Shown: in pieces, positions 26,322 to 39,876 of the stretch
Layout of the letters: the number at the start of each line of letters is the position of its first letter
Position numbering within the stretch: position 1 is the first letter of the stretch
Sequence record: PV805630.1
Reading direction: 5' to 3' (one strand)
Source: a phage
Length of the DNA stretch: 64,000 bases
Notes under the pieces: model-generated
Told to the model about the DNA's origin: nothing
Seen by the model: the letters and a program-made list of their open reading frames with translations, nothing else
Databases searched by the model: none
Position numbers and translations under genes: made by a program

Positions 26322-26552
26322 TCTGGTAGGTGGCTCAGAAGCTGCTGCTAGGTGTGGTAGTGTTTATAGTCCTGATGTTACTACTGGTCAGGATTATAGA
26401 CGTGTCGGCTCCATACATAGCTTTTATCATCACTGTCATTATCCTGTGGAAATGCAGTGGTAAACACGGTGGTGACAAGCCGCCAGAATAACAACAACCG
26501 AACCAGTGGATTGGAATACTCTCCCCAGTCCATTGGTTCAACCGAGGTTGAT

Positions 26553-26723
26553 ATGAACAAATTTACTATTCACTGGCTCAATGGAAAGGTTAGTTCTTTC
26601 ATGGGTGGGGAACCTGCTGAAGGAAACAAAGCATTCCACATTGATTCAGAAGGCTGCAAAATCTTAATACCTTATGCTTGGTATAAAGGTGGTGAAGTTG
26701 AAGCATTGAAAAAGAGTAGTTAA
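26553..26723 (+). CDS. Small hypothetical protein
   Basis: Track ORF starts at GTG 26457; in-frame ATG at 26553 follows GAGG. 56 aa. Confidence 0.2.
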   Translation: MNKFTIHWLNGKVSSFMGGEPAEGNKAFHIDSEGCKILIPYAWYKGGEVEALKKSS

Positions 26724-26759
26724 TATCGTGAAGGGTTCTGTTAGAATCCTTTGAGATAG

Positions 26760-27850
26760 GAACTCCTATCATAACCTTTCTTAACTTAATCTTTGCCGTA
26801 TGGCACTGACGCTAGGGGTGGCCCCCCATCCGTCAGACAGACTATTTTAAGAACCGGTTATCTCAGAAAATGTAAAGCAACATTCGGGTTAATCAATGGC
26901 CTCTCCTATAGGGGCCATTTCTGAATCTTAGGCTATATCCCAAAGGTTAGTATCTTTGGGATAAGGCTTCAGATCCCTTATCAAACTAACTGCTCAATGT
27001 TGAGTATATTAATTAACCCAGCCCACTAAGGGGGCAGGAGTTTAATGCCGGTAAGCATAAGCCCATCCGCCTACAACATCGAACTGTTAGATCTTACATG
27101 CAACATAGGGTAATGGGAGGATTCGTCCCCTCCCTCCTATTATGAACCAATTCGTGAGAACTCTTATCTTGGCTACCGGGAAAGGAGTGAAAAATGTTCG
27201 TAAACTACTCCCCAATTAGGTTCAACTCCTAAGCCAGGGTAAGTGTTCTCACTAATTGGAAAAATTAAGACGGGTCTGGTGAAGTAGATGGGGTTCGATT
27301 CCCTCCGGTGGAGTAATCCACTAGCGTGCTTGGTGTACGAATAAGACTTAGTACTGGTGGTTCGATTCCATCCCCCGTTACCCGAAGTCGCCAGGTACTT
27401 ATGGCAAACAACGAGGTAGTAACGAACTAGTCATTCGTCAAACGCCCACCCAATTATGAGTCAGCAAGAACGCCTTCACTTAAACTTAAACAAAAAAGCT
27501 TAACGCAATAATTATGTAGGGGTATGTAAGGATTGCGAAGAAGGAGCCAGTTAGAGCCTGGCATGACTCACCCATTTAGCAGTAACATAGTCCTGATTGC
27601 ATAGCACTCTAAAGACAACACTGGTAAGACAGTCCAGTGGCTGCTAATGTACTGTTATTCCCCTCGACGGGAATTTCGCTAGTGAAGGTAACACTTAAAA
27701 ATCCAAACCTACGTCTTACTGCTATCGGGCTATCAACCCACGGTCGCTTAACCCACTAGTGGTAGTAGTTTGACGGCCTACCTCGTTGACTGCGTTAAAG
27801 TCACTAAGTCCCTCGGAGCCGTCACTCTGGGGGACTTTTTTATTTGAGAA
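26760..27850 (+). other. ORF-poor, hairpin-rich non-coding region at the middle/late junction (possible ncRNA, tRNA remnants or origin)
   Basis: About 1.1 kb with no convincing ORF. Perfect 10-bp hairpin at about 26934-26965 (tatcccaaag / ctttgggata), further hairpins near 26807-26836 and 26895-26920, and two copies of ggttcgattcc at 27292-27302 and 27359-27369. Confidence 0.4.
27808..27843 (+). terminator. Rho-independent terminator closing the structured non-coding region
   Basis: GC-rich stem gtccctc / gggggac followed by tttttttat. Confidence 0.45.
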
Positions 27851-28274
27851 CTACTTATTGGACGATTCATATGATTGACCTAATCTTAACCCCGTATGCC
27901 TATGAGGTAACGGATAACCGAGGACGTAAGTCTCTGGTATTTGCAGGTAGCGTAGCCTATAACAACGCAGTCATGTTTAAATACAAACTTAAACCACTCT
28001 ATGAGGCTAACAATGGAATTTGATGATTTAGATTTTGAAGCTATTGAAAAGGCGAACCGGGAGAAACTGGAACAAGCTAATCGTGAAGCTGAAGAGTTAG
28101 AAAACGCTAAAGGTAACAATGATTGCACGAGTGGTGGTTGCACCATTTAACAAACAAGTGTAAGGTGGTTTTTACCGAAAGGTACTAAACTACCCGACAT
28201 GTAGTAAGGCTCATGAAGCCAAAACAAAACAAGCCCTCTTAGTGAGGGCTTTTCCATATCTGTAGGAAACTATT

Positions 28275-28516: not shown

Positions 28517-28548
28517 AAAGCCCCTCTTTTGAGGGGCTTTCTCATTTT
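28517..28548. terminator. Bidirectional terminator between the plus-strand block and the vRNAP gene
   Basis: Perfect 10-bp stem aaagcccctc / gaggggcttt with tttt loop, A-run on one side and T-run on the other; sits between convergent genes. Confidence 0.6.
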
Positions 28549-31500
28549 AGTTTACTAAGTTCATCCAAGGGTTCAGGTTGTGAGCACGAAGCCCCTGACC
28601 AAAGCCCCATGAGTAATCCAGACTGCCCTTAGCAGCAATACTAAAGATGTTGTCCTGAATAGGCAGGCCAACATTACCAAACATGGTAGGAGTTGGAGCC
28701 AGCATAGCCATTGCTGCATGTACCGGGTTATTACGAATCATGGACACTGCAACTTTTGCAGAACGAATCTTAAAGTTGTAGAACCACATTAAACCAACAC
28801 TCTCCATATACCCACGGAAACGGCCCGGCAGACGGTCATAGTTAATGAACTCTTCGGTTACACGTCCCAGTGCTTCTTCACGAGTCTTACCTTTACGCTG
28901 GGTCAATTCATCATAGATGATTGCTTTAGCGATAAAGTCAGAGTACTCAACCGTCTTCTGGATACCCTGGAACAGAGCAGTATCCTTAGTGATAAGTGCA
29001 TAACGACCAGCAGCACGTACAGACTTAGGTAACTTATCCGCCAGCTTTTCCATGTATTCGTGAAGTTTACCTTCAGTAATCAGGATGTCATCACGACCAA
29101 TACCAGCATCTGCAATTGAAGAGAACTCACCAGCTTCTATCAGAGGCCAGATACTCATACGCTTATGGCTATCAGTAATGGACTGAATCTCAGCCTTAAG
29201 TTTACGAATCTGGTTCGGGTTAGTAGCTGCACGTAATTCTGCTTCTGCATCTACCTGACGTAAACGAGATTTAAGGTATTGGTTAATCTCAGCAGTCTTC
29301 CGTGGAATGCTCTTAGCAATGTTCTTAACCGGTACACCACGAGCAACCATCTGGTAAAGGTTAGCCAAAAAGTTAACAACAGGTACGACTACTGACTTAA
29401 CTACAATCAGAGTCTTAGCATCTTTAACTAAATTTTGAACCAGGTTCTCACCACCCATTAAGTACTTATAGGCACGGTTACCGGCTAAACCCAGAATAGC
29501 TTTTTTAAAAGTATTAAGCGTTTCCGGGGACCAACGAGAATTACCAGACCAAGCATCACCAATCGAAGCTGCACGATAGCCAAGTGCATCATTCAGCATG
29601 TCACGACGTACCCACAGTTCACCCTCACCAAACAGTTTTTCTGCTTTCCGTCGAGTTTCGCTGTTCATCAGCTTAAGTGCATCAGCAGTTACTGGGTCCA
29701 GTTTAGAACCAAAAAGGTTCACGTACTGGGACTTATTAGCAGCAGACATCTTAAGGTCTTCCTTGTACATGCTATACAGGTTCTCAATCAGCATATCGTT
29801 GAAACGCTGAGCCTTAGCTTCTTCCACCTGACGTCCACGCCATACACCAATTGCACGGGCAAGATGATTTTCACCTTCAATATGCTTCAGCATATTAGGG
29901 TTAATTGATTGCTCATAAGCAACCACATCACCTTTAGCATTATATATGGGCAATAGTGGTTCATTACCACGCTCACCACGAGCTAGTGCTTTAGTGATAC
30001 GGTCTACAGAAGGCTTGTCAGTAATACGACCGGCTACCATGGAACCCATCGTAAAGCCTGTGCCGAGGTCTACACCACCAGCAGTATTACGAACGCTCTG
30101 TAGGATACCTTGTGAGAATGGAGCCTGTGCCTGTACCGGTGCAAAGTAGTAGCTACTCGATGGACCTCGGTTAGCAGAGCTACCTTGATAAGTACCCAGA
30201 CGAACATAGGACTTCTCTATCAAATCGCCAAACTCGCTATCTTCAGCAACAACCAGACTAACACCCTGTTTAGTCTCACTAGGGATATACCCTTTGTACT
30301 GGTTCAGGGTTGCACGCATATTAGATTTGGCTTTAGCCATTTCATCTTTACGCTGCCCAACCAGGTAAGAAGTAGCAAAGTCCATTCCCTCAACTTCTGT
30401 CTGAGCCAGTGAAGATAACATCTCACGGTCGGACTTGTTCATTGCTTCCAGTGCATACAGGGTAATAAGTTTATCCAGTTGAGCTACATCTACAATAGGG
30501 CGAGTAGTCTTACGTTCACCCAGCATACGAGAGATTGCAGTAGCATTACGCAGCAAGTTTTTACCGACTGTGCCATTAATCATGTACTGAGCCAGTTGCT
30601 TAGATTTACGGTTAATCAGAGGCCAGTTACGACCAGCTTGTTTCTGCAAATCTGCTTCCAGCTTATTCACTTCACGGTCAACAATCTTCTGGTCTGACAG
30701 CAGGTCACGAATTTCAGCCAGAGACATGGTGTCACGCAGGACAGCTAAGTCAGTTTTACCCATACCAGTGTGCATTGCTTTCCACTCATCCTTAGTCAGC
30801 TTACGGCTGAACTTAGATGCGATAGTGGTAGGCAGGTGTTCACGGAACTGCTGACGGTCAGCCTGCACCTGTGCACGGACTGCTTTAATCAAATCGTATA
30901 CAGAAGCATTACTCTTAGTACGACCGGTTAAGTCATTAACCAGGTCATGGAAAGGTTGCCATACTTTACCCTGGTTCATTGCAACCATAACGCCTTCAGC
31001 TACGTTTGCACCATTCTTCTCTGTAGCAATAGCAGCCATTAGTTGTGCAGCATGAGCAGCACCTTTGACCAATGGGTTTTTGGTATTAGCTGCAACTTCA
31101 CGAGCACTTTCTAAAACACGAGTAGACAGTACATCAATAGAGTCCACCAAATACTGGTTAGCACGGTCAATAGCATTACCACTAGGAGTAGCAACGGAAT
31201 CATAGAATGACTGTGCATTTAGGCTAGTCTGCATGATTGTTTGAGCCAGTGCATCCATACCTTCCTGTACGTTAGTAGCTTTAGTATCACCTGCTACACG
31301 AGCATTCAGGCTTGCCATTGCAGCAGTACCAATGTTAGTCAGCATTGCATCAACGGTATTCCCAGATTTCTTATCTGCTTTCATAACAGGAATGTTAGCC
31401 AGTACGTTACGTACCTCTTCACTTACCATTGCCAGACCAACAAAGGTAGGCAGTATTGAAGAACGGCCCTGTGCATCAAACTCAATATTGTTAGCACCCA

Positions 31501-34500
31501 TGATGGTATCGAACTTCTGCTGTGCATAGTAACGGTCAGCAGGGTTAGTACTATCTGGGTCAGTCATGAATGATTCAACAGTCAGGTTCTTAGTAACGTG
31601 TGCATAGTATTCCTGTGCACGAGAAAGAGCAGCAGGGCTAATAGCAGCTTCAGTAGCCAGTGCAGCAACAATGTTAGTAAAGAGTCGCTGTTCCTGCATA
31701 TTCATAGTGAAGCCATGAGCCTGAACATCACGGGTTACTTTAGTTGCGTGCTTTTTCGCATCAGAGAACTTACCTTCACGGATTACTTGCTGTACTGGTT
31801 CTGAACCAATGTAGTTAGTAATCAGCTTATCAAAGGTCTGTCCTAACTCTTCCAGACGGGTATTGTCACCATATGCTTTGTTATGGAACAAGGTAGTATC
31901 TTTGGCTACAGCAGCCGTAGGAGCCTGTCCACGCATAACAACTGAAGAGTTAAACAGTAAGCCAGAGAACATATCATCTGCATTAGCAGGTGCTTTCTTG
32001 CGACCGAATACTAGACGCTTGATTGCTTCATATACAGACTGAACCATGGCTTTCAGTGCAGTGGTCTTCTTCTGCTTACCAATCAGTTCACGGTTGGTTA
32101 AGCCCCAAGCCATGTACTCATTCAGTGCAGCAGCTTTAGCCATTGCAGGTTCAATGAAGCCGTTAGACAAATGACCATTAATGGTATTAAGTGCATCAGC
32201 ATATGCTTCACGTACTGCCGGGGATTCATCCTTAACATCCAGAGTAAGGAACTGGTTCATCAAGTCTTCAATATTCTGGACTGCTTCATTAGGAGTACCC
32301 TCATAGTGAGCCAGTACAGATTCAAAGGTAGAAGCATGTACTAATTCATGAACCAGAGTCTCTAAGGAAGGGGTAACTAAGTAGATGGTTTTATCATCAA
32401 AGTTAGTCCAACCGTATGCATTACCAGCTTCGGCAGCTTCAATATCTTCTGGTGCTGGGCGAGTAATGTTCTTCTCAATAGCATAAGCATCCAATTGAGC
32501 AGGAGTACCGTAAACAACCTTGTAGTCTTTAGCAGCAAGGGATTTCTGTATTTCTTTCAATACTGCTTGCTGTTCTGGAGACATCTCTTTAGCCAGTTTA
32601 GTAATGGCAGTATTAGACAATAGACGTACACCAGACTTAAGTACACGGCCAACCTGCTCCATCGCTGGCACTTCTTTAACAGGTGCTTCTTTAGTAGGCA
32701 CTTCTTTCACTGGTTCTGCTTTAGAAGCACGCACTGCATCACGACGCCTGTTTAATTCAGCATCAAACAGTTCGTTCAACTTAGCTACTTGCTGGTCTAC
32801 AGTCAGACCTTCCAGAGAAATTTTACCGTTGTTCACATATGGAGCACCTACAGCAGCCATCTGGTCAACAGTGGTCTGTACCTGGTTCATTACTTTGTGG
32901 CGAATATCTACACCCAGGGCAATGTTACGCAAGTTACGCTCAATGAGGTTAACACCGGAATTCTTAATCATATCAATCTTATACTGCCTGTCTCCCTCAA
33001 CACGACTGATATGAGAAAGCTGTTCAAAATCTAAAGCGGAACGAGCAATGTCATCGATTGTCTTATCCGATAACTTATCAAAGTCTACGTTCTTCATGAA
33101 CTTAGAGAAGGAGTCATACACGTTCTTAATAGGGTTGCCCTGCCAAGAAGTATATACAGCCTCATTAGCTTTACGGCTTGCATCAGTAATGTCACTGATA
33201 CCAATGTTCATACCATCAAAGATTTTCAAAGTATTCTTCGGTGCACCTTTCATAGTAGAAAGGGTCTGCATCATCATGCCATCACCAGTACCGATGGTCA
33301 TAAACGGAATACCTGCAACACCTGCTTGTGAAGGAGCATAGATGCTCATTGGCACACGCATACGGTCATCTAAGTTGGTAGCCAGTACTTGGTTAGCAAC
33401 ATCAGTATTCTCACTACCAGCAATGTAGAAAGTCTGTAAACCAGTCTCAATCATTGGAGCCAGTGGAGACAAGGATTTCTGAATTTCATTCAGTTCTTTC
33501 TGTGTTAAGAAATCACCCTTCTTCCAGGTTGGGTCTTTTTCTTTTTCAGCCAGTTTAGCCTGTACTGCTTGCTGGAACATATCTTGCAATACCAGAGACT
33601 GAATCTGAGTAGCCTTCTGCAAGTTCTCAGTGGATTGCATCAGCCCCTCCCCAACGGTGAACCGGATACTTTGTCTCATTGGTTCAACGAAGAAGTGCAA
33701 CATGTTCTCTTGTAAGTTCTTAAGGGCAGCACCAGATACGGTAAACTCCTGGGGATTTAACTCACCAGTCAGAGCACCATCTACTTCTTTAATAAATAAC
33801 TTACCTTTACGCTTAGCTGGAATCTTACCAGTCAGTGCTTCCATAGAAGTAAGGAAGGTATCCAGCATAGCCTGAGCATCTGCCTCAGACGCAGCCTCCT
33901 TACCAAACATTGCCATAGCTGGGGAAATGCTAGGGTCAGCAGCACGTGCTTGTAGAACGTCACTGAGGCGTTCGTAGATGGTGTCAGTAATTGCACTAAC
34001 CATCTTCCCAGCAATACCACGTGCACCAGAACCATAGATGGTAATAGTCAGTGGGTTTTTAGCGATACCACGTTTCAGGTCCAGAGTGCCATCTTCATTC
34101 AGGTTAAAGTCTTTAATGAACAGGTCCATCAACTTCTGGAGATGGTTCATCTGGCTCATAACCGGAACATTGTTACGGTAAGTAGTACGTAACTCATTTA
34201 GATAAAATTGCAGACCATTAGTAGATGCTTCATACAGGTCAACATTATCGTCAATAGAACAATGTTCATTCATCGTTTTACCAGCACGACCAAAGAACAA
34301 ACCACCCTTGGCAGTATTCTTAATCCAATTTGGAGTGAACTTACCTCCAGTCATTAATACCATTGCATTGATTGGGCCGTTGGTTACACCATCAGCTTCG
34401 ACATACAGTGGGGTATTAAAGTTAGCACGGTCATCACTGTTCAGGTAACGGGCATATTCCATCAGAGCCATGAGAGCCACGAAGGATTTGTTATCACCCA

Positions 34501-37500
34501 GGGAAGACTTCAGAATATCTACTGCATCAGTAGGTAAGTAACCAGACTTATCAAACTCGACCATCATATCAACAGCAGGTTTCAGATTACCTTCTAGAGC
34601 TTTGGTCAGATTTTCAGACATAGCTTCACGGGACATTTTGTGTACCTTGATGCCTAATGCCTGGGCCAGTCCTAGCTGGAAGTCAGAGAACGCTTGGCTG
34701 TTTTCATTACTCAAGTCAATAGTGGAGAAGGTTGGCAGAATTGCTTCACGAACCAGCTTACTGGATTGTGGATTGTTCTTACCAAGCATCTGCATACGAC
34801 CTACACGGGTCATGTTGTAACCGTAATGGATAGGTGTATCCAGACCATTCTCTTGTTCTTTTAGCTGATTAATTAAACCGAACAAGGAATCATATGCCAT
34901 AGATACCGATAAGTTCTTACCTTCCAGAGATTTGGCAGTGTTTTCATTCAGCAAATCAGGATTAAGAGAACCAGCACCCATCAGTTCCAGAATGCCGTCA
35001 CGCCCCAATGCTTCATAGAAGTTAACCATCGGCATGTGTACACGGAACTCCGTAGCCTGTTCAGCTTTCAGAGCAGCTTTCTGTTCTGGGGTATTCCTAA
35101 CCGCAGGGTTACGTAACTGAGTTTGAGCCACGGAAGGAATGTCGTCACCGAAGTACGTTTTCTCTTCCGGGTTTACCAAAACAGCTTCTTCAATTGCTGT
35201 AAGGAAATTATTAATAGGGTCTTTATCAGCCAACTTATTAATAGTGTACAAACCAATAGTCTTATTAGAGTCCGGGTCAATCTCAGACACATCCAACATA
35301 GACTCAGTAACTGCACCCATCTCGATGAGGGAAGACAGAATCTCTGTAGCCATTGCCACTGGAATACCCTTGGTATAACCCAGTGGTGCATTAGGGTTAC
35401 GGTTTAAACCCCAGTAGGATTCAATCTTTTGAGCCAGTGAGTTAGTAGCCTCAATCAGAGTCTGGGCATTATCAAACTCAGCCAGAATACTTTCTGGTAA
35501 CAGAGATGCATCTACACCAGTAATAGCAGCCACGTCTTTCATGTCTTTAATGGCAGCATTCTGTGTAGCAGTCAGTCGCCATTGCAGACCAGCAAGTACA
35601 GCAGTCTCTAACAACTGGTCATTGAACTTAAAGGTATCTCCATCTTTCTCTACGATGTTAAGTAACTTACCACCTACCCAACGGTTAGCCTCAGTACCTT
35701 CTGCAAAACGTTTACCAACATTTTTATTAGCAAGGAACTTAGCCAGTCGTTCAGACAGAGTAGCCTTCAGAGTTTCCCCAAAGTCCATCAAGTCTTGATA
35801 GCGTTCTAACACATCACCTGCGAGAACGTTATTTTCTTTTTGAGTGAACGCTTCAAAGCGAGCAGCAGAAGACAGTGCTTGCTTGATATCAGCCAAAGGA
35901 GATTCAGAACCAATGGTACGGGACTTAGGTTCTTCCGGTAGGGTAAATGCCTTCAGGAACTGGTTCGGTGTCTTCTCATTGTTATAGACAGGGAACACTG
36001 CTTCCATTCCAGAAAGGGGTTTGCCACCCACTGTATAATCTGCTTTCAGCTGAGCCAGTGATACTTCATCCTTCTCCACGTTGTTAGTGTTACGACCAGA
36101 GGTATCTACACCAACCAGAATCTGTGCATTATTGGCTTCAACGAAAGACTGAACAGTATTGAATTGTTCAGCAGTCAGCTTCTGATTATCAAACAGTTGC
36201 AGAGATACAAATGGTTGTTCACTACCTTTATAGAAGGTAGAGCGAATAGCACCTGTATCCAGGGACATATCACGATACCCATCATGCCCAAATACGTCGG
36301 ACAGGCTGATATGGTCGCCATTAGAACCAACCACAGTACCATCAGCAAACAGCCATGGACTCTCCCTACGATCACCATACTTATTAAGAGTTTCCTGTGA
36401 AATAGTATTTTCTTTCACATAGGCATCTCTTTCAGATTCAGTAGGTTGCTCGATGGTATCCTCATTAGTGGGGGTAGCATCATCTACAACCGGGCTAGTC
36501 TTTTCAGACTTAGGTACTTTCTCTTCCTGTACAGGTGTAACTTCTGGCTGGGAGAATGTATTACGTACATAGTTCATAAAATCATTACGTGCTTGAGAAG
36601 GAGAAGACCATACTTCCCGTGTGCTACGTAAACTAAAGATTCGTCCTTCAGGAGTCATTACGTAAGGTACATTTGTTTTACCGTACTTAAATGAAGTGAG
36701 TACATCTGACTTACCAGTAACAGTGCTTTCCCCTGGAATGACAATAGTCTTACCACCAGTAGAAGGAACAGCACGAACACCCTCAATATCCTTACCAAGA
36801 GAAATATACTCTTTACCGTTGTAATCAAAGTACTGACCTATCTGCATATAGGTAGCTTGTTGCTTACCAGTAAACTCAGCAGTTTTCATCTCCGGGCCGT
36901 TAGGTACAGACGTACTTTCAGACTTAGGCTTAGATACTTTCTCTGGTTCTGACTTAGACTCTACAGTGTTAGGAGCAGTTTTATTGTTTACCACTGGTTT
37001 AGCTTTAGACTGTACAGTAGTAGTGTCCTCTTGCACTGGTGCAGGGGTTTCATCAACCTGATTCACTGGTTCATTAGTCTGTTGGGACTGAGTGGCATTA
37101 AGACCACCTTGACGGAACTCTTTAACTACCTGGGCAGCTGGCTTGTTCAGACGTGAATCCAACGAGGTAACTTTCACATGAGAAACATTAAGCTCCGGGT
37201 AAGCCGTAGCAAGTGCGTTAGCAATATCAGCTACGGTCTTAGCTTCCAGCGCTACTTGCTGGGCAAACTTAACAGACTTGGTATCATAAGGATTAACACC
37301 GAGGCCAGTACGACTACGTACCCATTCACGAGTAGGCGTGAGAGCCTGATAATGAACAGACTTATTCTTATCCGCATTCCCCGAAATCAGATGCTCATTC
37401 AACGCTCCGACCTTATTCTGCATGTGCTGGGCGAACTTCATAAAATCGCTCAGATAAGCGGAGGCCAAATCGAAGTTACCAGAGTTATACGCAGAACGAA

Positions 37501-39808
37501 TGCGTTTCGCATGTTGCAACGCAGAGTACTGTCCTTCATTAGAACGAGACTCGTCGGTTTTAATCTGTTTACTAACGATGTCTTGACGACGTAAGCCCAG
37601 TTCTTCTGCTTTAGCATCATACTCACGTGCACCCTGTAACAGAGCAGCAGCTGATTGCAGGGCAGCACGTTGACGATTATTCAGTGTAATCTTACCCTCA
37701 CTCGCATGCTTCAGAACCATGTTCACTGAATCTGCATCCAGTACTTCTGGAGACACATCAGCAGCCATAGCAATGTTGTTTGCTTGGGCTTGGTTAGCTT
37801 CTTCAGTAGCTTTCAGCTTACCTGCTTCAGCCTGTTCCTGAATCATAGAATGGATGGCACGGAATGCACGAAGTACTTTAGGGGTATTCTGTATGTTAGC
37901 CATCAGACCGGAGAACTGGTCTACGATTGCAGCAGCAGGAGAACCCTGTTCCAGATTAGCCAGAGCACCTGGGTCACGGTTAATGAAGCTATCCATAGAC
38001 ATGATGTTGTCATACATCTGGATTGCAGCTTCCATTTGAACGTCAGGGTCTTCAGCAGTATTAACCAGGTCAGCCATCTTCTGAATAGCTTCTACACGGT
38101 TAGTGGAACCAGAAACAGCTTCACGGATTACTGGGTTGGCTTGTTCCAATTCTACCGGGTCAAACTTCATTGCCTGGGTTAAGTCAGCAGCATACTGAGT
38201 AGCAGCAGCCTTCTCTTCTGGAGTGATGTCCATTGCATCTACTGCTTCCTGTACGGTTGCCTGTGCTTGCTCTGCCTGAGCAACAGCTTCCTGTGCAGCA
38301 GCATTAACCGTAGCATCAGCTACAGGGGATGCTTGTTCATTACGCTTAGCAACTTCTTCACCACGTTGAACCAGGATGTTAGTAAGAGGGGAGGCAGCTT
38401 TTGCTAATGTTTTACCAACCAGAGAAGCACCAGCCAGGGTAGTACGAAGAGCAGGTCCAGCAGCAGCACCGGCAGCTTTAACAGTTGCACCAGGAGCCTG
38501 AGCAACACCAGCACTACCGAAGCCATAAAGTGCACCAAGACCTGCTTGCTCACCGACACCTTTGAGGGTATCTCGGGATGCATCAACATTTTCCTTGATT
38601 GCACGGTTCTGGGCATACTGACCAAAGCCTGACTGAATACCTTCTTCAACTGTTTCACGTAGCATATTGGAACCAGCACCAGCCAGTGAACCTACCTTAA
38701 GTGGGTTAAGTTCAAAGCGAGATACCAGTGGACCGGTAGCAGCAGCAACTGGAGCAGTTAAGCCAGCAGCAAGGATACCTGTTTCAGATGCAGTCTGACG
38801 ACGTGCTTCATCAGGAGATAAACCATCGGCAATATGTTGTTGGTAAACAGGAGACTTACTTGCCAGTTCTGGATGGGACATCTTCATGATTTCAGAAGCA
38901 GTCTGTTGGTATGCACCACCAGCTTCCATAGCACCGATTGCAATAGCAGGTGCAGCAACACGACCAGTAGACAGTGCAACCTGTGCAGGACGTGAACCTA
39001 ACCCAGCAGCTAAGGTAATACCCTTAACAGCTTTATCACCACCTACCATTACTTTACCGAGTGCAGATACACCACGGATAAGTGGACCACCGGTAAAGAG
39101 GGAACCAACGCCTTCACTCAGTCCATCTGAGGCAGCCATACCATTATCAAGTGTGTTAGTAACAGAGTCGAAAGCATCACGACCAATGCGAGACAGGGAG
39201 GCAACCAAATCGCTCTCCCCGTTTTTGATGTCCTGTTCATAGAGTTTCTGGTTCTTTTGAGCAGAAATCTGGTTCTGATTCTGAACAACTTTACGTGTAG
39301 CATTCAGTGCATCAGATTGTAGATTGTGTACGCCTTCATTCAACCAATCCATCCCGGAAGCAATGGTTGCCCCGGCATTATCATTGACCAGACCTGCGCC
39401 AAGAGCAGCAATGCCCCCAAGGGTATTAGCAACACCAAGACCAACACCAGAAAGAGTATCGCCAAATGCTTCTGCGTTAGTACGCTGTTTAGATAAGTCC
39501 TGACGTACAGCATCCGCAGCATTAGCTCGACTATTAAGAATTTGTAGACCTTGCTCATTACCGTATTTATTAATGATTTCTAATGGGGAGGCTTGAGTGA
39601 AGTCTGCCTGAAGTGAACCTGGTTCGAATGCACCGATTCCAAGATTACCTACTCGTCCAGTCTGGAGAGTGTAAGCATTCTCTGGGGTTAATTGGAAAGG
39701 GCTTTGCCCTTGTGCAGCTTGCTTCTGAGAGGTTGCAGTAGAGACATCGACTTGCTTAGCATTAGTGATGCTGTCTGCGAAACCTGCCAGACGGTCAAAT
39801 GTTGACAT
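28547..39808 (-). CDS. Virion-encapsidated giant RNA polymerase (N4 gp50 vRNAP-like)
   Basis: About 3750-aa ORF, the size class of N4 vRNAP. Contains a T7-like motif A candidate (LYVEADGVTNGPINAM). Last gene of the minus-strand late block, as in N4. Track start is TTG 39826; in-frame ATG at 39808 follows AGGA. Confidence 0.85.
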   Translation of the reverse strand: MSTFDRLAGFADSITNAKQVDVSTATSQKQAAQGQSPFQLTPENAYTLQTGRVGNLGIGAFEPGSLQADFTQASPLEIINKYGNEQGLQILNSRANAADAVRQDLSKQRTNAEAFGDTLSGVGLGVANTLGGIAALGAGLVNDNAGATIASGMDWLNEGVHNLQSDALNATRKVVQNQNQISAQKNQKLYEQDIKNGESDLVASLSRIGRDAFDSVTNTLDNGMAASDGLSEGVGSLFTGGPLIRGVSALGKVMVGGDKAVKGITLAAGLGSRPAQVALSTGRVAAPAIAIGAMEAGGAYQQTASEIMKMSHPELASKSPVYQQHIADGLSPDEARRQTASETGILAAGLTAPVAAATGPLVSRFELNPLKVGSLAGAGSNMLRETVEEGIQSGFGQYAQNRAIKENVDASRDTLKGVGEQAGLGALYGFGSAGVAQAPGATVKAAGAAAGPALRTTLAGASLVGKTLAKAASPLTNILVQRGEEVAKRNEQASPVADATVNAAAQEAVAQAEQAQATVQEAVDAMDITPEEKAAATQYAADLTQAMKFDPVELEQANPVIREAVSGSTNRVEAIQKMADLVNTAEDPDVQMEAAIQMYDNIMSMDSFINRDPGALANLEQGSPAAAIVDQFSGLMANIQNTPKVLRAFRAIHSMIQEQAEAGKLKATEEANQAQANNIAMAADVSPEVLDADSVNMVLKHASEGKITLNNRQRAALQSAAALLQGAREYDAKAEELGLRRQDIVSKQIKTDESRSNEGQYSALQHAKRIRSAYNSGNFDLASAYLSDFMKFAQHMQNKVGALNEHLISGNADKNKSVHYQALTPTREWVRSRTGLGVNPYDTKSVKFAQQVALEAKTVADIANALATAYPELNVSHVKVTSLDSRLNKPAAQVVKEFRQGGLNATQSQQTNEPVNQVDETPAPVQEDTTTVQSKAKPVVNNKTAPNTVESKSEPEKVSKPKSESTSVPNGPEMKTAEFTGKQQATYMQIGQYFDYNGKEYISLGKDIEGVRAVPSTGGKTIVIPGESTVTGKSDVLTSFKYGKTNVPYVMTPEGRIFSLRSTREVWSSPSQARNDFMNYVRNTFSQPEVTPVQEEKVPKSEKTSPVVDDATPTNEDTIEQPTESERDAYVKENTISQETLNKYGDRRESPWLFADGTVVGSNGDHISLSDVFGHDGYRDMSLDTGAIRSTFYKGSEQPFVSLQLFDNQKLTAEQFNTVQSFVEANNAQILVGVDTSGRNTNNVEKDEVSLAQLKADYTVGGKPLSGMEAVFPVYNNEKTPNQFLKAFTLPEEPKSRTIGSESPLADIKQALSSAARFEAFTQKENNVLAGDVLERYQDLMDFGETLKATLSERLAKFLANKNVGKRFAEGTEANRWVGGKLLNIVEKDGDTFKFNDQLLETAVLAGLQWRLTATQNAAIKDMKDVAAITGVDASLLPESILAEFDNAQTLIEATNSLAQKIESYWGLNRNPNAPLGYTKGIPVAMATEILSSLIEMGAVTESMLDVSEIDPDSNKTIGLYTINKLADKDPINNFLTAIEEAVLVNPEEKTYFGDDIPSVAQTQLRNPAVRNTPEQKAALKAEQATEFRVHMPMVNFYEALGRDGILELMGAGSLNPDLLNENTAKSLEGKNLSVSMAYDSLFGLINQLKEQENGLDTPIHYGYNMTRVGRMQMLGKNNPQSSKLVREAILPTFSTIDLSNENSQAFSDFQLGLAQALGIKVHKMSREAMSENLTKALEGNLKPAVDMMVEFDKSGYLPTDAVDILKSSLGDNKSFVALMALMEYARYLNSDDRANFNTPLYVEADGVTNGPINAMVLMTGGKFTPNWIKNTAKGGLFFGRAGKTMNEHCSIDDNVDLYEASTNGLQFYLNELRTTYRNNVPVMSQMNHLQKLMDLFIKDFNLNEDGTLDLKRGIAKNPLTITIYGSGARGIAGKMVSAITDTIYERLSDVLQARAADPSISPAMAMFGKEAASEADAQAMLDTFLTSMEALTGKIPAKRKGKLFIKEVDGALTGELNPQEFTVSGAALKNLQENMLHFFVEPMRQSIRFTVGEGLMQSTENLQKATQIQSLVLQDMFQQAVQAKLAEKEKDPTWKKGDFLTQKELNEIQKSLSPLAPMIETGLQTFYIAGSENTDVANQVLATNLDDRMRVPMSIYAPSQAGVAGIPFMTIGTGDGMMMQTLSTMKGAPKNTLKIFDGMNIGISDITDASRKANEAVYTSWQGNPIKNVYDSFSKFMKNVDFDKLSDKTIDDIARSALDFEQLSHISRVEGDRQYKIDMIKNSGVNLIERNLRNIALGVDIRHKVMNQVQTTVDQMAAVGAPYVNNGKISLEGLTVDQQVAKLNELFDAELNRRRDAVRASKAEPVKEVPTKEAPVKEVPAMEQVGRVLKSGVRLLSNTAITKLAKEMSPEQQAVLKEIQKSLAAKDYKVVYGTPAQLDAYAIEKNITRPAPEDIEAAEAGNAYGWTNFDDKTIYLVTPSLETLVHELVHASTFESVLAHYEGTPNEAVQNIEDLMNQFLTLDVKDESPAVREAYADALNTINGHLSNGFIEPAMAKAAALNEYMAWGLTNRELIGKQKKTTALKAMVQSVYEAIKRLVFGRKKAPANADDMFSGLLFNSSVVMRGQAPTAAVAKDTTLFHNKAYGDNTRLEELGQTFDKLITNYIGSEPVQQVIREGKFSDAKKHATKVTRDVQAHGFTMNMQEQRLFTNIVAALATEAAISPAALSRAQEYYAHVTKNLTVESFMTDPDSTNPADRYYAQQKFDTIMGANNIEFDAQGRSSILPTFVGLAMVSEEVRNVLANIPVMKADKKSGNTVDAMLTNIGTAAMASLNARVAGDTKATNVQEGMDALAQTIMQTSLNAQSFYDSVATPSGNAIDRANQYLVDSIDVLSTRVLESAREVAANTKNPLVKGAAHAAQLMAAIATEKNGANVAEGVMVAMNQGKVWQPFHDLVNDLTGRTKSNASVYDLIKAVRAQVQADRQQFREHLPTTIASKFSRKLTKDEWKAMHTGMGKTDLAVLRDTMSLAEIRDLLSDQKIVDREVNKLEADLQKQAGRNWPLINRKSKQLAQYMINGTVGKNLLRNATAISRMLGERKTTRPIVDVAQLDKLITLYALEAMNKSDREMLSSLAQTEVEGMDFATSYLVGQRKDEMAKAKSNMRATLNQYKGYIPSETKQGVSLVVAEDSEFGDLIEKSYVRLGTYQGSSANRGPSSSYYFAPVQAQAPFSQGILQSVRNTAGGVDLGTGFTMGSMVAGRITDKPSVDRITKALARGERGNEPLLPIYNAKGDVVAYEQSINPNMLKHIEGENHLARAIGVWRGRQVEEAKAQRFNDMLIENLYSMYKEDLKMSAANKSQYVNLFGSKLDPVTADALKLMNSETRRKAEKLFGEGELWVRRDMLNDALGYRAASIGDAWSGNSRWSPETLNTFKKAILGLAGNRAYKYLMGGENLVQNLVKDAKTLIVVKSVVVPVVNFLANLYQMVARGVPVKNIAKSIPRKTAEINQYLKSRLRQVDAEAELRAATNPNQIRKLKAEIQSITDSHKRMSIWPLIEAGEFSSIADAGIGRDDILITEGKLHEYMEKLADKLPKSVRAAGRYALITKDTALFQGIQKTVEYSDFIAKAIIYDELTQRKGKTREEALGRVTEEFINYDRLPGRFRGYMESVGLMWFYNFKIRSAKVAVSMIRNNPVHAAMAMLAPTPTMFGNVGLPIQDNIFSIAAKGSLDYSWGFGQGLRAHNLNPWMNLVN

Positions 39809-39876
39809 AGCATGTTTCCTGTTCAAACTTATATCGTATATAGGTAACCTACTCTACAGTAAGCCAGTGTAAGAAA

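What the first reader, a model, noticed from the sequence alone, without database searches (positions are those of the whole stretch)
26760..27850. 1.1-kb ORF-free structured region with a duplicated tRNA T-arm-like motif
Between the replication genes and the late block there is no convincing ORF but many perfect hairpins, including a 10-bp stem at about 26934-26965. The 11-mer ggttcgattcc, identical to a canonical tRNA T-stem/loop, occurs twice 67 nt apart (27292-27302, 27359-27369) in similar context. I could not close a canonical acceptor stem for either copy. Candidates: degenerate or unusual tRNA genes, tRNA-like elements, a phage ncRNA (a plus-strand terminator closes the region at 27808-27843), or a replication origin.
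Basis: seen in the sequence. Interest (0 to 1): 0.6.

Follow-up and report, generated by a model that had tools for sequence, protein, structure and literature searches.

The report
Phage array of tRNA-like noncoding RNAs
The gene-free 1.1 kb of this N4-like coliphage is what remains of a tRNA operon that has lost every true tRNA but kept several conserved structured RNAs, and the two "T-arm" copies both belong to one ~113-nt tRNA-like RNA that neither Rfam nor any GenBank record I looked at contains.

Summary
GGTTCGATTCC occurs exactly twice, at 27292 and 27359 (0.03 expected by chance), with a third variant at 27219. No ORF exceeds 48 aa, hairpins are numerous, and a terminator closes the region.

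The window is a G7C-like (Gamaleyavirus) N4-like phage. The region lies in the slot where N4 and its relatives carry tRNA genes, but this phage has none there. It holds a chain of self-closed RNA modules on the + strand.

The two T-arms are not two degenerate tRNAs. A single 7-bp acceptor-like stem (27268-27274/27374-27380) encloses both, plus a variable hairpin and a UUGGU-loop hairpin. RNAalifold recovers these 27 pairs independently. Fifteen pairs show compensatory changes across three phage clades (Gamaleyavirus, Klebsiella Kaypoctavirus, T4-like Gaprivervirus/Kanagawavirus). In every clade the element sits in a tRNA cluster, on the tRNA strand, unannotated.

The third T-arm tops a ~27-bp stem cassette (27147-27259) that is also present in N4.

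No Rfam family matches, default ARAGORN calls nothing, and 5,426 E. coli genomes contain no copy.

The most likely reading is anticodon-less tRNA mimics cut out by the tRNA-processing machinery, analogous to T4 RNAC/RNAD. Their function is unknown. The pseudogene and replication-origin readings are not supported.

The parts
26721..27141 (+). Module P. A structured block that starts at the stop codon of the upstream ORF (TAATATCGTGAAGG...). It has 5' hairpins at 26730-26751 and 26753-26768, a Gamaleyavirus-specific 192-nt insertion at 26762-26953, a closing stem at 26986-27002/27074-27090, and a terminal hairpin at 27105-27140 (GGGAGG ATTCGTCC CCTCCC).
   Evidence: About 240 nt are shared at roughly 75-86% identity with phiEco32-like kuraviruses. 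There the element starts right after three different upstream genes and ends in a hairpin annotated as a terminator. Hairpin arms differ by compensatory changes between the window and phiEco32 (read from the alignments). The inverted repeats are listed.
26925..26974 (+). It lies at the 3' edge of the Gamaleyavirus-specific insertion.
   Evidence: Inverted repeat I2. Its 3' arm and what follows (26954-26990) align to phiEco32 L008 1431-1467.
27147..27259 (+). Module A, a long-stem cassette. It has a ~27-bp basal stem (27147-27174/27232-27259) with conserved mismatches. The apex consists of a 10-nt linker UACCGGGAAA, a 6-bp hairpin (27184-27189/27206-27211) with a 16-nt loop AAAAAUGUUCGUAAAC, then CCAA, then a T-arm (27216-27220/27228-27232, loop UUCAACU).
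   Evidence: Homologs exist in N4, Salmonella Ithacavirus SP-076/058, Klebsiella Pylas/KpCHEMY26 and Yersinia T4-likes TG1/phiR1-RT. RNAalifold predicts 34 pairs, 14 with compensatory changes. 93% of cells are paired, against 36-52% in slid controls. The fold has a z-score of -6.4. The covariance model scores 140 bits on the + strand and 34 bits on the - strand.
27268..27380 (+). Module B, the double-T-arm tRNA-like RNA. P1 is an acceptor-like stem, 27268-27274/27374-27380. P2 is T-arm-like, 27290-27293/27301-27304, with loop UUCGAUU. P3 is a variable hairpin, 27307-27312/27317-27322, with a GUAA loop. P4 is 27325-27329/27335-27339 with loop UUGGU. P5 is a T-arm, 27356-27360/27368-27372. Unpaired GG, GUAGAU, CC and AG are invariant, and GACUUA is nearly so. 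A tentative 3-bp P6 joins GUA 27284-27286 with UAC 27352-27354.
   Evidence: Alignment A1 holds 13 sequences from 3 clades. RNAalifold gives the same 27 pairs that I derived by hand. 98.3% of cells are paired, against 38-57% when partners are slid. Fifteen pairs have changes on both sides, and 0 of 500 shuffles reach the observed score. P6 is compatible in all 13 sequences but shows only one-sided changes.
27386..27572 (+). Module C, a Gamaleyavirus-specific structured block with possible closing stems at 27439-27457/27508-27526 and 27457-27463/27564-27570.
   Evidence: It behaves as a separate mosaic unit: UE-S5b and L023 carry about 110 extra nt between B and C. No distant homologs were found, so there is no covariation test.
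27576..27577 (.). An empty cassette site. Relatives carry tRNA-Ile(AAU) here, flanked by C[A/G]CCCATT direct repeats. G7C carries an unrelated 134-nt insert at the same point.
27579..27644 (+). Module D, a small three-way junction. The closing stem is 27579-27583/27640-27644, with hairpins at 27595-27609 and 27619-27624/27634-27639 and conserved unpaired CUCUAAAGACAA.
   Evidence: It is conserved in N4 (L033 3005-3142) and in Klebsiella Kaypoctavirus. RNAalifold predicts 16 pairs, 3 with compensatory changes. The fold z-score is -2.2 on the + strand and -0.6 on the - strand.
27806..27843 (+). Intrinsic terminator that ends the noncoding transcription unit.
   Evidence: A 13-pair stem followed by TTTTTATTT. 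It corresponds to the rho-independent terminator annotated in G7C at L001 2715-2750.

Best explanation
The region is the stable-RNA (tRNA) operon of a G7C-like N4-like phage. It lies on the + strand after the gp46/gp47-like genes and ends at the terminator at 27806-27843. This lineage has lost every canonical tRNA from the operon but kept a chain of self-closed structured RNA modules. This much is shown.

The two GGTTCGATTCC copies are the loops and closing pairs of two T-arm hairpins inside one ~113-nt RNA, module B (27268-27380). A single 7-bp acceptor-like stem closes the RNA. It contains two T-loops, two invariant GG motifs and no anticodon arm. The third T-arm motif tops module A, a ~27-bp stem cassette.

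The following is inferred. The modules are cut out of the polycistronic transcript by the host tRNA-maturation machinery. RNase P would act at the acceptor/T-arm minihelix of module B, RNase III in the long stem of module A, and exonucleases would trim the 3' ends. In T4-like phages module B fills a tRNA slot, 2 nt after the CCA of tRNA-Met in PEi26 and 8 nt before tRNA-Arg in VR25. The released RNA would be a stable, anticodon-less tRNA mimic with two tRNA-like 'elbows'. It would act in trans by binding a factor that recognises tRNA shape, such as a host tRNA-targeting defence nuclease or a tRNA-processing or tRNA-modifying enzyme. It would not decode.
For: Identity and context. The region is 95% identical to G7C 34272-35576. 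N4 has a 1.5-kb unannotated gap at the same place, holding 4 tRNAs plus modules A and D. Relatives carry tRNA-Ile, Cys, Thr, Val or Ala in this region.

Structure of module B. RNAalifold independently reproduces 27 pairs in 5 helices. Fifteen pairs have compensatory changes. 98.3% of cells are paired, against 38-57% in slid controls. The acceptor stem has entirely different sequences in the three clades: GACGGG/CCCGUU, GGCAAG/CUUGCC and CAYGGCG/CGCURUG.

Strand. About 42 G.U cells against 1 A.C cell, including a G.U that is invariant in all 13 sequences. The + strand MFE is -39.1 kcal/mol and the - strand MFE is -27.5. For module A the model scores 140 bits on + and 34 on -.

tRNA-likeness. 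The module-B covariance model aligns genuine tRNAs end to end at 13-22 bits, with P1 on the acceptor stem and P5 on the T-arm. Relaxed ARAGORN gives sub-threshold calls on both modules.

tRNA-slot placement. The element is on the same strand as the tRNAs in all lineages.

Selection. Unpaired motifs are invariant across clades that are otherwise 73-80% identical. Modules A and B are retained in a phage whose 64-kb window has no tRNA.

Not host-derived. There is no match in 5,426 complete E. coli genomes or in enterobacterial reference genomes.

Precedent. [quoted passage not shown] Phage tRNA loci act against tRNA-cleaving defences (PMC13096335).
Against: No transcript, processing or binding data exist for any member, so excision, stability and trans action are all inference. 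The single-sequence minimum-free-energy fold of module B differs from the comparative structure, and its z-score is only -1.4. No encoded CCA follows P1: the tail is CC[C/U] in N4-likes and AAC or ACU in T4-likes. One extra C separates the T-stem from the acceptor strand. The first acceptor pair is A.A in the window. The alignment has 13 sequences but effectively only three clades, so many compensatory cells are inherited events. The function could be purely cis-acting. The sharing between unrelated phages could partly reflect gene conversion linked to homing endonucleases in tRNA regions.
Confidence: 0.6

Rival explanations
1. The modules are cis-acting punctuation only. They are processing and stability signals (RNase III stems, RNase P-cleavable tRNA-like folds) that separate and protect flanking RNAs in the operon, and the excised pieces have no function of their own.
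For: The basal stem of module A is a conserved 'frame' (CUAUCARUGAGUAC...GUACUCUYUGAUAG) that carries different apical cargo in different phages. In N4 the stem starts at the CCA of an upstream tRNA-like element and ends 9 nt before tRNA-Pro. Modules are packed with spacers of 10 nt or less, as tRNAs are.
Against: In this phage no tRNA remains to be released, yet modules A and B are kept at 98-99% identity to G7C and Moonfish. Module B has long invariant unpaired motifs (GUAGAU, GG, UUGG, CC, AG; GACUUA nearly so) and two canonical T-loops, which is far more than a cleavage signal needs.
Confidence: 0.22
2. The elements are decaying tRNA pseudogenes, neutral remnants of a lost tRNA cluster.
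For: The locus is a tRNA slot, and relatives have intact tRNAs nearby. An intact tRNA-Ile is precisely absent at 27576/27577. The 24-nt duplicated context looks like two T-arms.
Against: Fifteen of 27 pairs in module B and 14 of 34 in module A keep pairing through changes on both sides, across clades 73-80% identical. The same non-tRNA architecture is found in N4-likes and in T4-likes. No relative has an intact tRNA at the homologous position.
Confidence: 0.04
3. Module B, or the apex of module A, is an unusual but functional decoding tRNA, for example one with an intron or a non-standard arm.
For: Relaxed ARAGORN calls 27269-27382 a 'tRNA-Arg with a 20-nt intron' and 27166-27241 a 'tRNA-Tyr'. 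The P4 loop UUGGU contains UGG and aligns to the anticodon arm of tRNA-Pro(UGG).
Against: No conserved 5-bp stem with a 7-nt anticodon loop exists. The P3 loop varies from 4 to 8 nt and is not conserved, and the P4 loop is 5 nt. The element falls below the ARAGORN and Rfam tRNA thresholds. It is 113 nt long with two T-arms, and the relaxed cloverleaves have poor D and anticodon arms.
Confidence: 0.04
4. It is a DNA-level element: a replication origin, a recombination hotspot, or a set of homing-endonuclease target sites.
For: Mosaic breakpoints coincide with module edges. G7C has an HNH homing endonuclease next to the region. The GC-skew trend reverses nearby.
Against: There are no iterons; the only direct repeats are the T-arm pair and one 17-mer. 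There is no AT-rich stretch, with GC at 0.41-0.47 like the flanks. The skew reversal coincides with the change in gene orientation. The conserved G.U pairs would be A.C mismatches on the other strand, and they are meaningless in duplex DNA.
Confidence: 0.05

Closest known systems
Bacteriophage T4 RNAC and RNAD (species 1 and species 2 RNAs)
   Same: They are small non-tRNA RNAs encoded inside a phage tRNA gene cluster on the tRNA strand. RNAC ends in a canonical T-arm (CCGGG UUCGAAU CCCGG) followed by one C and a short closing strand (read). Their roles are unknown (PMC3014915, PMC9697503). VR25, a T4-like phage that carries module B, has an RNAD-like start right after its tRNA-Arg.
   Different: There is no detectable homology: neither covariance model hits T4 70908-71171. 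RNAC has one T-arm and is 139 nt long. Module B has two T-arms, is 113 nt long and has different helices.
Canonical tRNA (Rfam RF00005; ARAGORN)
   Same: Module B has a 7-bp terminal stem, a 5-bp T-stem with a UUCRAWU loop closed by G-C, and a GG-containing region 5' of it. It occupies a tRNA slot in operons. Real tRNAs align end to end to the module-B model.
   Different: It has no anticodon arm, two T-arms, an extra C between the T-stem and the acceptor strand, and no encoded CCA. It is 113 nt long and is not detected at standard thresholds.
tRNA mimics in non-coding RNAs: the bacterial Y RNA (YrlA) tRNA-like domain, the tmRNA tRNA-like domain, and viral tRNA-like structures
   Same: The concept is the same: an RNA that copies the acceptor/T-arm/elbow part of tRNA without decoding (PMC4201824 for Y RNAs). 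Like Y RNAs, module A combines a long terminal stem with a tRNA-like apex.
   Different: No Rfam family matches. There is no tag reading frame and there are no pseudoknots, as tmRNA would have. The helix order in module A is that of a normal, unpermuted tRNA (my reading). From my own knowledge, E. coli has no Ro/Rsr partner.
GOLLD and ROOL large phage RNAs
   Same: They are ORF-free structured RNA loci in phage genomes that are often next to tRNA genes (my own knowledge).
   Different: No Rfam match was found. This region is a mosaic of small, independently closed modules that come and go between relatives, not one large fold.

Membership tests
canonical tRNA | A terminal 7-bp acceptor stem formed by the 5' and 3' ends | tested here: met
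   P1 is 27268-27274/27374-27380. Five of its 7 pairs show compensatory changes and 94.5% of cells are paired. The first pair is A.A in the window.
canonical tRNA | A T-arm: a 5-bp stem and a 7-nt loop UUCRANY closed by G53-C61 | tested here: met
   P5 is 27356-27372 and is 100% paired. A second T-arm, P2, has a 4-bp stem. A third lies in module A at 27216-27232.
canonical tRNA | An anticodon arm: a 5-bp stem with a conserved 7-nt loop (U33, purine 37) | tested here: not met
   No such arm exists in alignment A1. The P3 loop is 4-8 nt and variable, and the P4 loop is the 5-nt UUGGU.
canonical tRNA | Detection by ARAGORN or the Rfam tRNA model at standard thresholds, and a length of 70-95 nt | tested here: not met
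   ARAGORN finds 0 genes. Rfam has no tRNA hit even at E<=10. Only relaxed ARAGORN (-ps80, or -i -ps85) gives poor cloverleaves. Module B is 113 nt long.
tmRNA | A tRNA-like domain plus a tag reading frame and pseudoknots | tested here: not met
   ARAGORN finds no tmRNA. The Rfam tmRNA model matches only the 13-nt T-arm, at 10.9 bits against a gathering score of 47.
T4 RNAC/RNAD-type stable RNAs of phage tRNA clusters | Encoded within a phage tRNA gene cluster, on the tRNA strand, and not a tRNA | tested here: met
   Module B lies between tRNA-Met and tRNA-Arg in VR25 and directly after tRNA-Met in PEi26. Module A lies between tRNA-Thr and tRNA-Pro in N4.
T4 RNAC/RNAD-type stable RNAs of phage tRNA clusters | Sequence or structure homology to T4 rnaC or rnaD | tested here: not met
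   Models R1 and R2 give no hit on L009 1909-2172 at E<=10 and E<=1 respectively.
T4 RNAC/RNAD-type stable RNAs of phage tRNA clusters | Accumulates as a discrete stable RNA in infected cells | not testable with these tools
   No expression data were available. It needs a Northern blot or small-RNA sequencing.
bacterial Y RNA (YrlA-like) | A match to the family model, a Ro/Rsr-binding stem, and an adjacent rsr gene | tested here: not met
   No Rfam family other than those listed reached E<=10 in 26600-28000. The flanking genes are gp46/gp47-like and the virion RNA polymerase. I did not check whether Rfam holds a YrlA model.
GOLLD / ROOL | A match to the Rfam covariance model; one large conserved fold | tested here: not met
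   There are no hits. The region is a mosaic of separable modules.
replication origin | Iterons or initiator-binding repeats, and an AT-rich unwinding element | tested here: not met
   Direct repeats are limited to the T-arm pair and one 17-mer. GC is 0.41-0.47 throughout.
intrinsic terminator | A GC-rich hairpin followed by a U-run on the transcribed strand | tested here: met
   The stem is at 27806-27837, followed by TTTTTATTT. It is annotated as a terminator in G7C.

The most novel reading that the evidence does not exclude
Module B is the first well-supported member of a wider, overlooked class of compact 'double-T-arm' tRNA-shaped RNAs in phage genomes. In this class one acceptor-like stem encloses two T-loop/GG elbow units and there is no anticodon. 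Such RNAs would act as decoys or sponges for host factors that read tRNA shape, for example acceptor- or elbow-recognising defence toxins, RNase P, or T-arm-modifying enzymes. Alternatively, the two T-loops could form a platform that binds the elbow of host tRNAs. Phages would then keep these RNAs even after losing all decoding tRNAs. A preliminary IMG/VR scan found many unrelated loci with two T-arm motifs at less than tRNA spacing that ARAGORN does not call. Of 112 such loci, 27 (24%) have a perfect 7-bp stem enclosing both T-arms, against roughly 14% expected from shifted controls.
Probability: 0.25. Interest if true: 0.8.

Novelty: new variant of a known kind. Interest (0 to 1): 0.62.

Why it matters
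Phage tRNA clusters are now seen as counter-defence loci, yet the non-tRNA RNAs inside them have had no function for 50 years (T4 RNAC and RNAD). This finding adds a family with unusually clear comparative support, a defined five-helix fold, and a telling natural experiment: a phage that has discarded every decoding tRNA from the operon but kept the tRNA-shaped RNAs. That makes the question of what non-decoding tRNA mimics do for a phage directly testable in a tractable E. coli phage system (G7C/N4). It also shows that standard tRNA finders and Rfam miss these elements, so the roughly 1-1.5 kb 'empty' gaps in N4-like genomes are mis-described in every record I examined.

Tried and rejected
- Default ARAGORN and Rfam at gathering scores found nothing. 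The permissive Rfam scan gave only chance-level hits to mir-9413, His_leader and U2, plus the bare T-arm.
- Whole-region MFE folding of both strands was uninformative: -376.8 versus -381.4 kcal/mol.
The stem encloses both.
- I tested homology to T4 rnaC/rnaD. Neither covariance model hits them.
- I tested for host or prophage origin. There is no match in E. coli complete genomes. The genome-contig scan returned only unrelated bacteria, probably ordinary tRNAs.
- The metagenome scan and further IMG/VR scans returned only the same three clades, so I could not widen the alignment. One IMG/VR scan was wasted on a pattern with a wrong fixed spacer.
- I tested the origin reading. There are no iterons and no AT-rich element.
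- Literature searches for a description of these RNAs, or for N4 or G7C transcript data covering this gap, found nothing relevant.
- A palindromic AGUACU/AAUAUU in the P4-P5 linker looked like a dimerisation site, but G7C-type sequences break it, so I dropped it.
- A 3-bp P6 helix is compatible in all sequences but has only one-sided changes. I kept it as tentative.
- AlaRS-type G3.U70 identity is not conserved in P1.
Full report
**What the window is.** A 3759-aa ORF on the minus strand (28547-39826) is a virion RNA polymerase. The finding region is 95% identical to Escherichia phage G7C 34272-35576. The window is therefore a Gamaleyavirus, a G7C-like N4-like phage. The finding lies between the gp46/gp47-like middle genes on the + strand and the gp48/gp49/vRNAP block. 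Phage N4 itself has a 1.5-kb gap without annotation at the same place.

**Checking the observation.** All parts are confirmed.
- The 11-mer occurs exactly twice, at the stated coordinates. Chance predicts 0.03 copies. A looser T-loop pattern adds a third copy at 27219.
- No ORF exceeds 48 aa.
- The hairpins, including the 10-bp stem, are real.
- The terminator is real and is annotated as such in G7C.
- Default ARAGORN finds no tRNA or tmRNA in the whole 64 kb.
- Rfam finds nothing at gathering scores. A permissive scan finds only the bare 13-nt T-arm.

**The locus is a tRNA slot and a mosaic.** Relatives annotate tRNA-Ile, Cys, Thr, Val, Ala or 'OTHER' in this region. ARAGORN finds four tRNAs in the N4 gap. 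Pairwise comparison shows separable blocks whose edges recur between genomes: about 26721-27144, 27144-27258, 27254-27383, 27386-27576, 27576-27712, and then the terminator. Several blocks have homologs in unrelated phages:
- 27009-27141 matches phiEco32-like kuraviruses.
- 27155-27250 matches N4, Salmonella Ithacavirus, Klebsiella N4-likes and Yersinia T4-likes.
- 27284-27374 matches T4-like Gaprivervirus and Kanagawavirus, and Klebsiella Kaypoctavirus.
- 27566-27646 matches N4 and Kaypoctavirus.

Modules A and B fall in or beside a tRNA cluster, on the tRNA strand, in every one of those genomes (the kuravirus match has only a tRNA-Arg about 1.4 kb upstream). No RNA feature is annotated under any match.

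**Module B: the two T-arms belong to one RNA.** I aligned 13 distinct sequences from three clades. A single 7-bp terminal stem encloses both T-arm copies. Its sequence is completely different in each clade but always pairs: GACGGG/CCCGUU in the window, GGUGGG/CCCACU in UE-S5b, GGCAAG/CUUGCC in Kaypoctavirus, and CAYGGCG/CGCURUG in the T4-likes.

The stem encloses four hairpins:
- P2, a 4-bp T-arm-like hairpin whose second pair is G-C, U-A or C-G depending on the clade.
- P3, a hairpin of variable length and loop, closed by a G.U pair that is invariant.
- P4, a 5-bp hairpin with loop UUGGU.
- P5, a canonical 5-bp T-arm.

RNAalifold predicted exactly these 27 pairs without guidance, and 15 of them have compensatory changes. 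On my structure, 98.3% of cells are paired, against 38-57% when partners are slid by 1-3 columns, and no shuffle out of 500 reaches the observed covariation. In window coordinates the RNA spans 27268-27380. Unpaired GG, GUAGAU, CC and AG are invariant across clades that are otherwise 73-80% identical, and GACUUA is nearly so. That argues for tertiary contacts or a binding partner.

**Strand and molecule.** About 42 G.U cells stand against one A.C cell in module B. Module A likewise has invariant or frequent G.U and U.G pairs. These would be mismatches in the opposite transcript and have no meaning in duplex DNA. The module-A model scores 140 bits on the + strand and 34 on the - strand. The + strand folds are more stable than the - strand folds.

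**tRNA-likeness without being a tRNA.** The module-B covariance model aligns real tRNAs end to end at 13-22 bits. P1 falls on the acceptor stem, P5 on the T-arm, the 5' GG...GUAGAU stretch on the D-loop region, and P4 on the anticodon arm of tRNA-Pro(UGG). Relaxed ARAGORN produces sub-threshold, poorly formed cloverleaves over both modules.

Several features rule out a decoding tRNA. No conserved anticodon arm exists. There are two T-arms. The length is 113 nt. One extra C separates P5 from P1. No CCA is encoded.

The placement is that of a tRNA in a polycistronic cluster. In PEi26 module B starts 2 nt after the CCA of tRNA-Met. In VR25 it ends 8 nt before tRNA-Arg. In the window it follows module A by 8 nt, which is the position tRNA-Pro holds in N4.

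**Module A.** A basal stem of about 27 bp (27147-27174/27232-27259) carries a linker, a 6-bp hairpin with a conserved 16-nt loop, and a T-arm. Thirty-four pairs are predicted, 14 with compensatory changes. 93% of cells are paired, against 36-52% in controls, and the fold z-score is -6.4.

The model also finds the same basal stem enclosing quite different apical sequences in other Gamaleyaviruses and in Kaypoctaviruses. The stem therefore behaves as a reusable frame. I read it as an RNase III-type processing stem; that is inference.

**Other modules.**
- Module D (27579-27644) is a small three-way junction conserved in N4 and Kaypoctavirus, with 3 compensatory pairs.
- Module P shares about 240 nt with kuraviruses. 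There it begins at the stop codon of three different upstream genes and ends in a hairpin annotated as a terminator.
- Module C has only close relatives and could not be tested.

**What it is not.**
- Not pseudogenes: see the covariation and the invariant loops.
- Not an origin: there are no iterons and no AT-rich stretch, and the GC-skew reversal coincides with the change of gene orientation.
- Not host-derived: no match in 5,426 E. coli genomes or in enterobacterial reference genomes.
- Not detectably homologous to T4 RNAC or RNAD.
- Not a match to any Rfam family at its curated threshold.

**Likely mechanism.** Three things are shown: a + strand, terminator-closed, ORF-free unit made of self-closed conserved RNA folds; a five-helix tRNA-shaped RNA that contains both T-arms; and tRNA-slot placement.

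The rest is inferred. RNase P would excise at the P1/P5 minihelix, RNase III would cut in the module-A stem, and exonucleases would trim the 3' ends. The result would be stable, anticodon-less tRNA mimics that bind a factor recognising tRNA shape.

The nearest precedent is T4 RNAC and RNAD, whose roles remain unknown (PMC3014915, PMC9697503). The current view of phage tRNA loci as counter-defence (PMC13096335) gives a plausible but untested direction. The main rival is a purely cis-acting processing role.

**Novelty.** Every record I examined leaves these elements without an RNA annotation. Rfam 15 has no model that matches them. Six literature searches found no description. I class this as a new variant of a known kind: phage tRNA-cluster, tRNA-like non-coding RNA.

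**A lead not followed to the end.** After I removed collagen-like coding repeats, many hits were not called by ARAGORN. Of 112, 27 had a perfect 7-bp stem enclosing both motifs, against roughly 14% expected from shifted controls. Double-T-arm RNAs may therefore be a wider class.

Noticed in passing
window 27576-27577; L002 3061-3150; L001 2349-2482: This is an empty cassette site. PhAPEC5, UE-S5b, L023 and L026 carry a tRNA-Ile with the unusual anticodon AAU exactly here, flanked by C[A/G]CCCATT direct repeats. G7C has an unrelated 134-nt insert at the same point. The window has neither.
   Followed up: partly
window 26518-26560 versus L001 821-1318: The window lacks the HNH homing endonuclease gene (gp47.1) that G7C carries just upstream of the noncoding region. 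A ~43-nt stretch aligns to both sides of the G7C insertion.
   Followed up: no
L033 (phage N4) 2017-2696 and 2430-2506: The N4 GenBank record shows no tRNA annotation in the stretch I fetched, but ARAGORN finds four tRNAs there (Asn, Ser, Thr, Pro). In addition, a 77-nt tRNA-like element with an 8-bp terminal stem, a T-arm and an encoded CCA is missed by ARAGORN. Its CCA overlaps the start of the module-A stem.
   Followed up: partly
L005 1546-1636 and L032 1034-1124 (Yersinia T4-like phages): An uncalled tRNA-like element sits directly after tRNA-Met, with a GAAUGUG/CACAUUC stem, a T-arm, and the same extra C before the 3' strand. It scores 18 bits with the module-B model.
   Followed up: no
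L003 1929-2038, L026 4080-4191, L077 3128-3227, L078 6896-7008, L028-L031: A conserved long-stem 'frame' (CUAUCARUGAGUAC...GUACUCUYUGAUAGUUUUCGUAAGCGA) encloses different apical sequences in different N4-like phages, as if the stem were a reusable processing cassette.
   Followed up: partly
window 26721-27141; L008 1402-1641; L034, L036, L038: A ~240-nt noncoding element is shared with phiEco32-like kuraviruses. It begins at the stop codon of three different upstream genes and ends in a terminator-like hairpin. The window copy carries a 192-nt insertion (26762-26953) and has a degraded T-run.
   Followed up: partly
IMG/VR loci L080-L199, e.g. L104 3844-3932, L141 3709-3827, L145 7002-7102, L173 3081-3176, L180 11009-11110: Many unrelated viral contigs have two, and sometimes three, T-loop motifs at less than tRNA spacing that ARAGORN does not call. 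Some have a perfect 7-bp stem enclosing both, and L173 ends in ACCA. Others (L127) look like tandem ~50-nt mini-tRNAs that lack anticodon arms. Collagen-like coding repeats (GGTGCTCAAGGTTCAAGTCC) are false positives of the pattern.
   Followed up: partly
L003 3036-3111 and L030 76-150: ARAGORN calls 'tRNA-???' genes with two-base anticodons (a 6-nt anticodon loop) next to normal tRNAs in UE-S5b and Klebsiella phage PW7. This is another sign of non-canonical tRNA-like genes in these clusters.
   Followed up: no
L029 (Klebsiella phage K60PH164C1) 1-2517: The record annotates RIIA and RIIB pseudogene CDS across a stretch that holds three tRNAs and modules A-like, B and D. This looks like a misannotation.
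   Followed up: no
window 27197-27205 and 27333-27341: The conserved loop of module A (UUCGUAAAC) is 8/9 complementary to the 3' strand of P4 in module B (GUGUACGAA). This may be chance.
   Followed up: no
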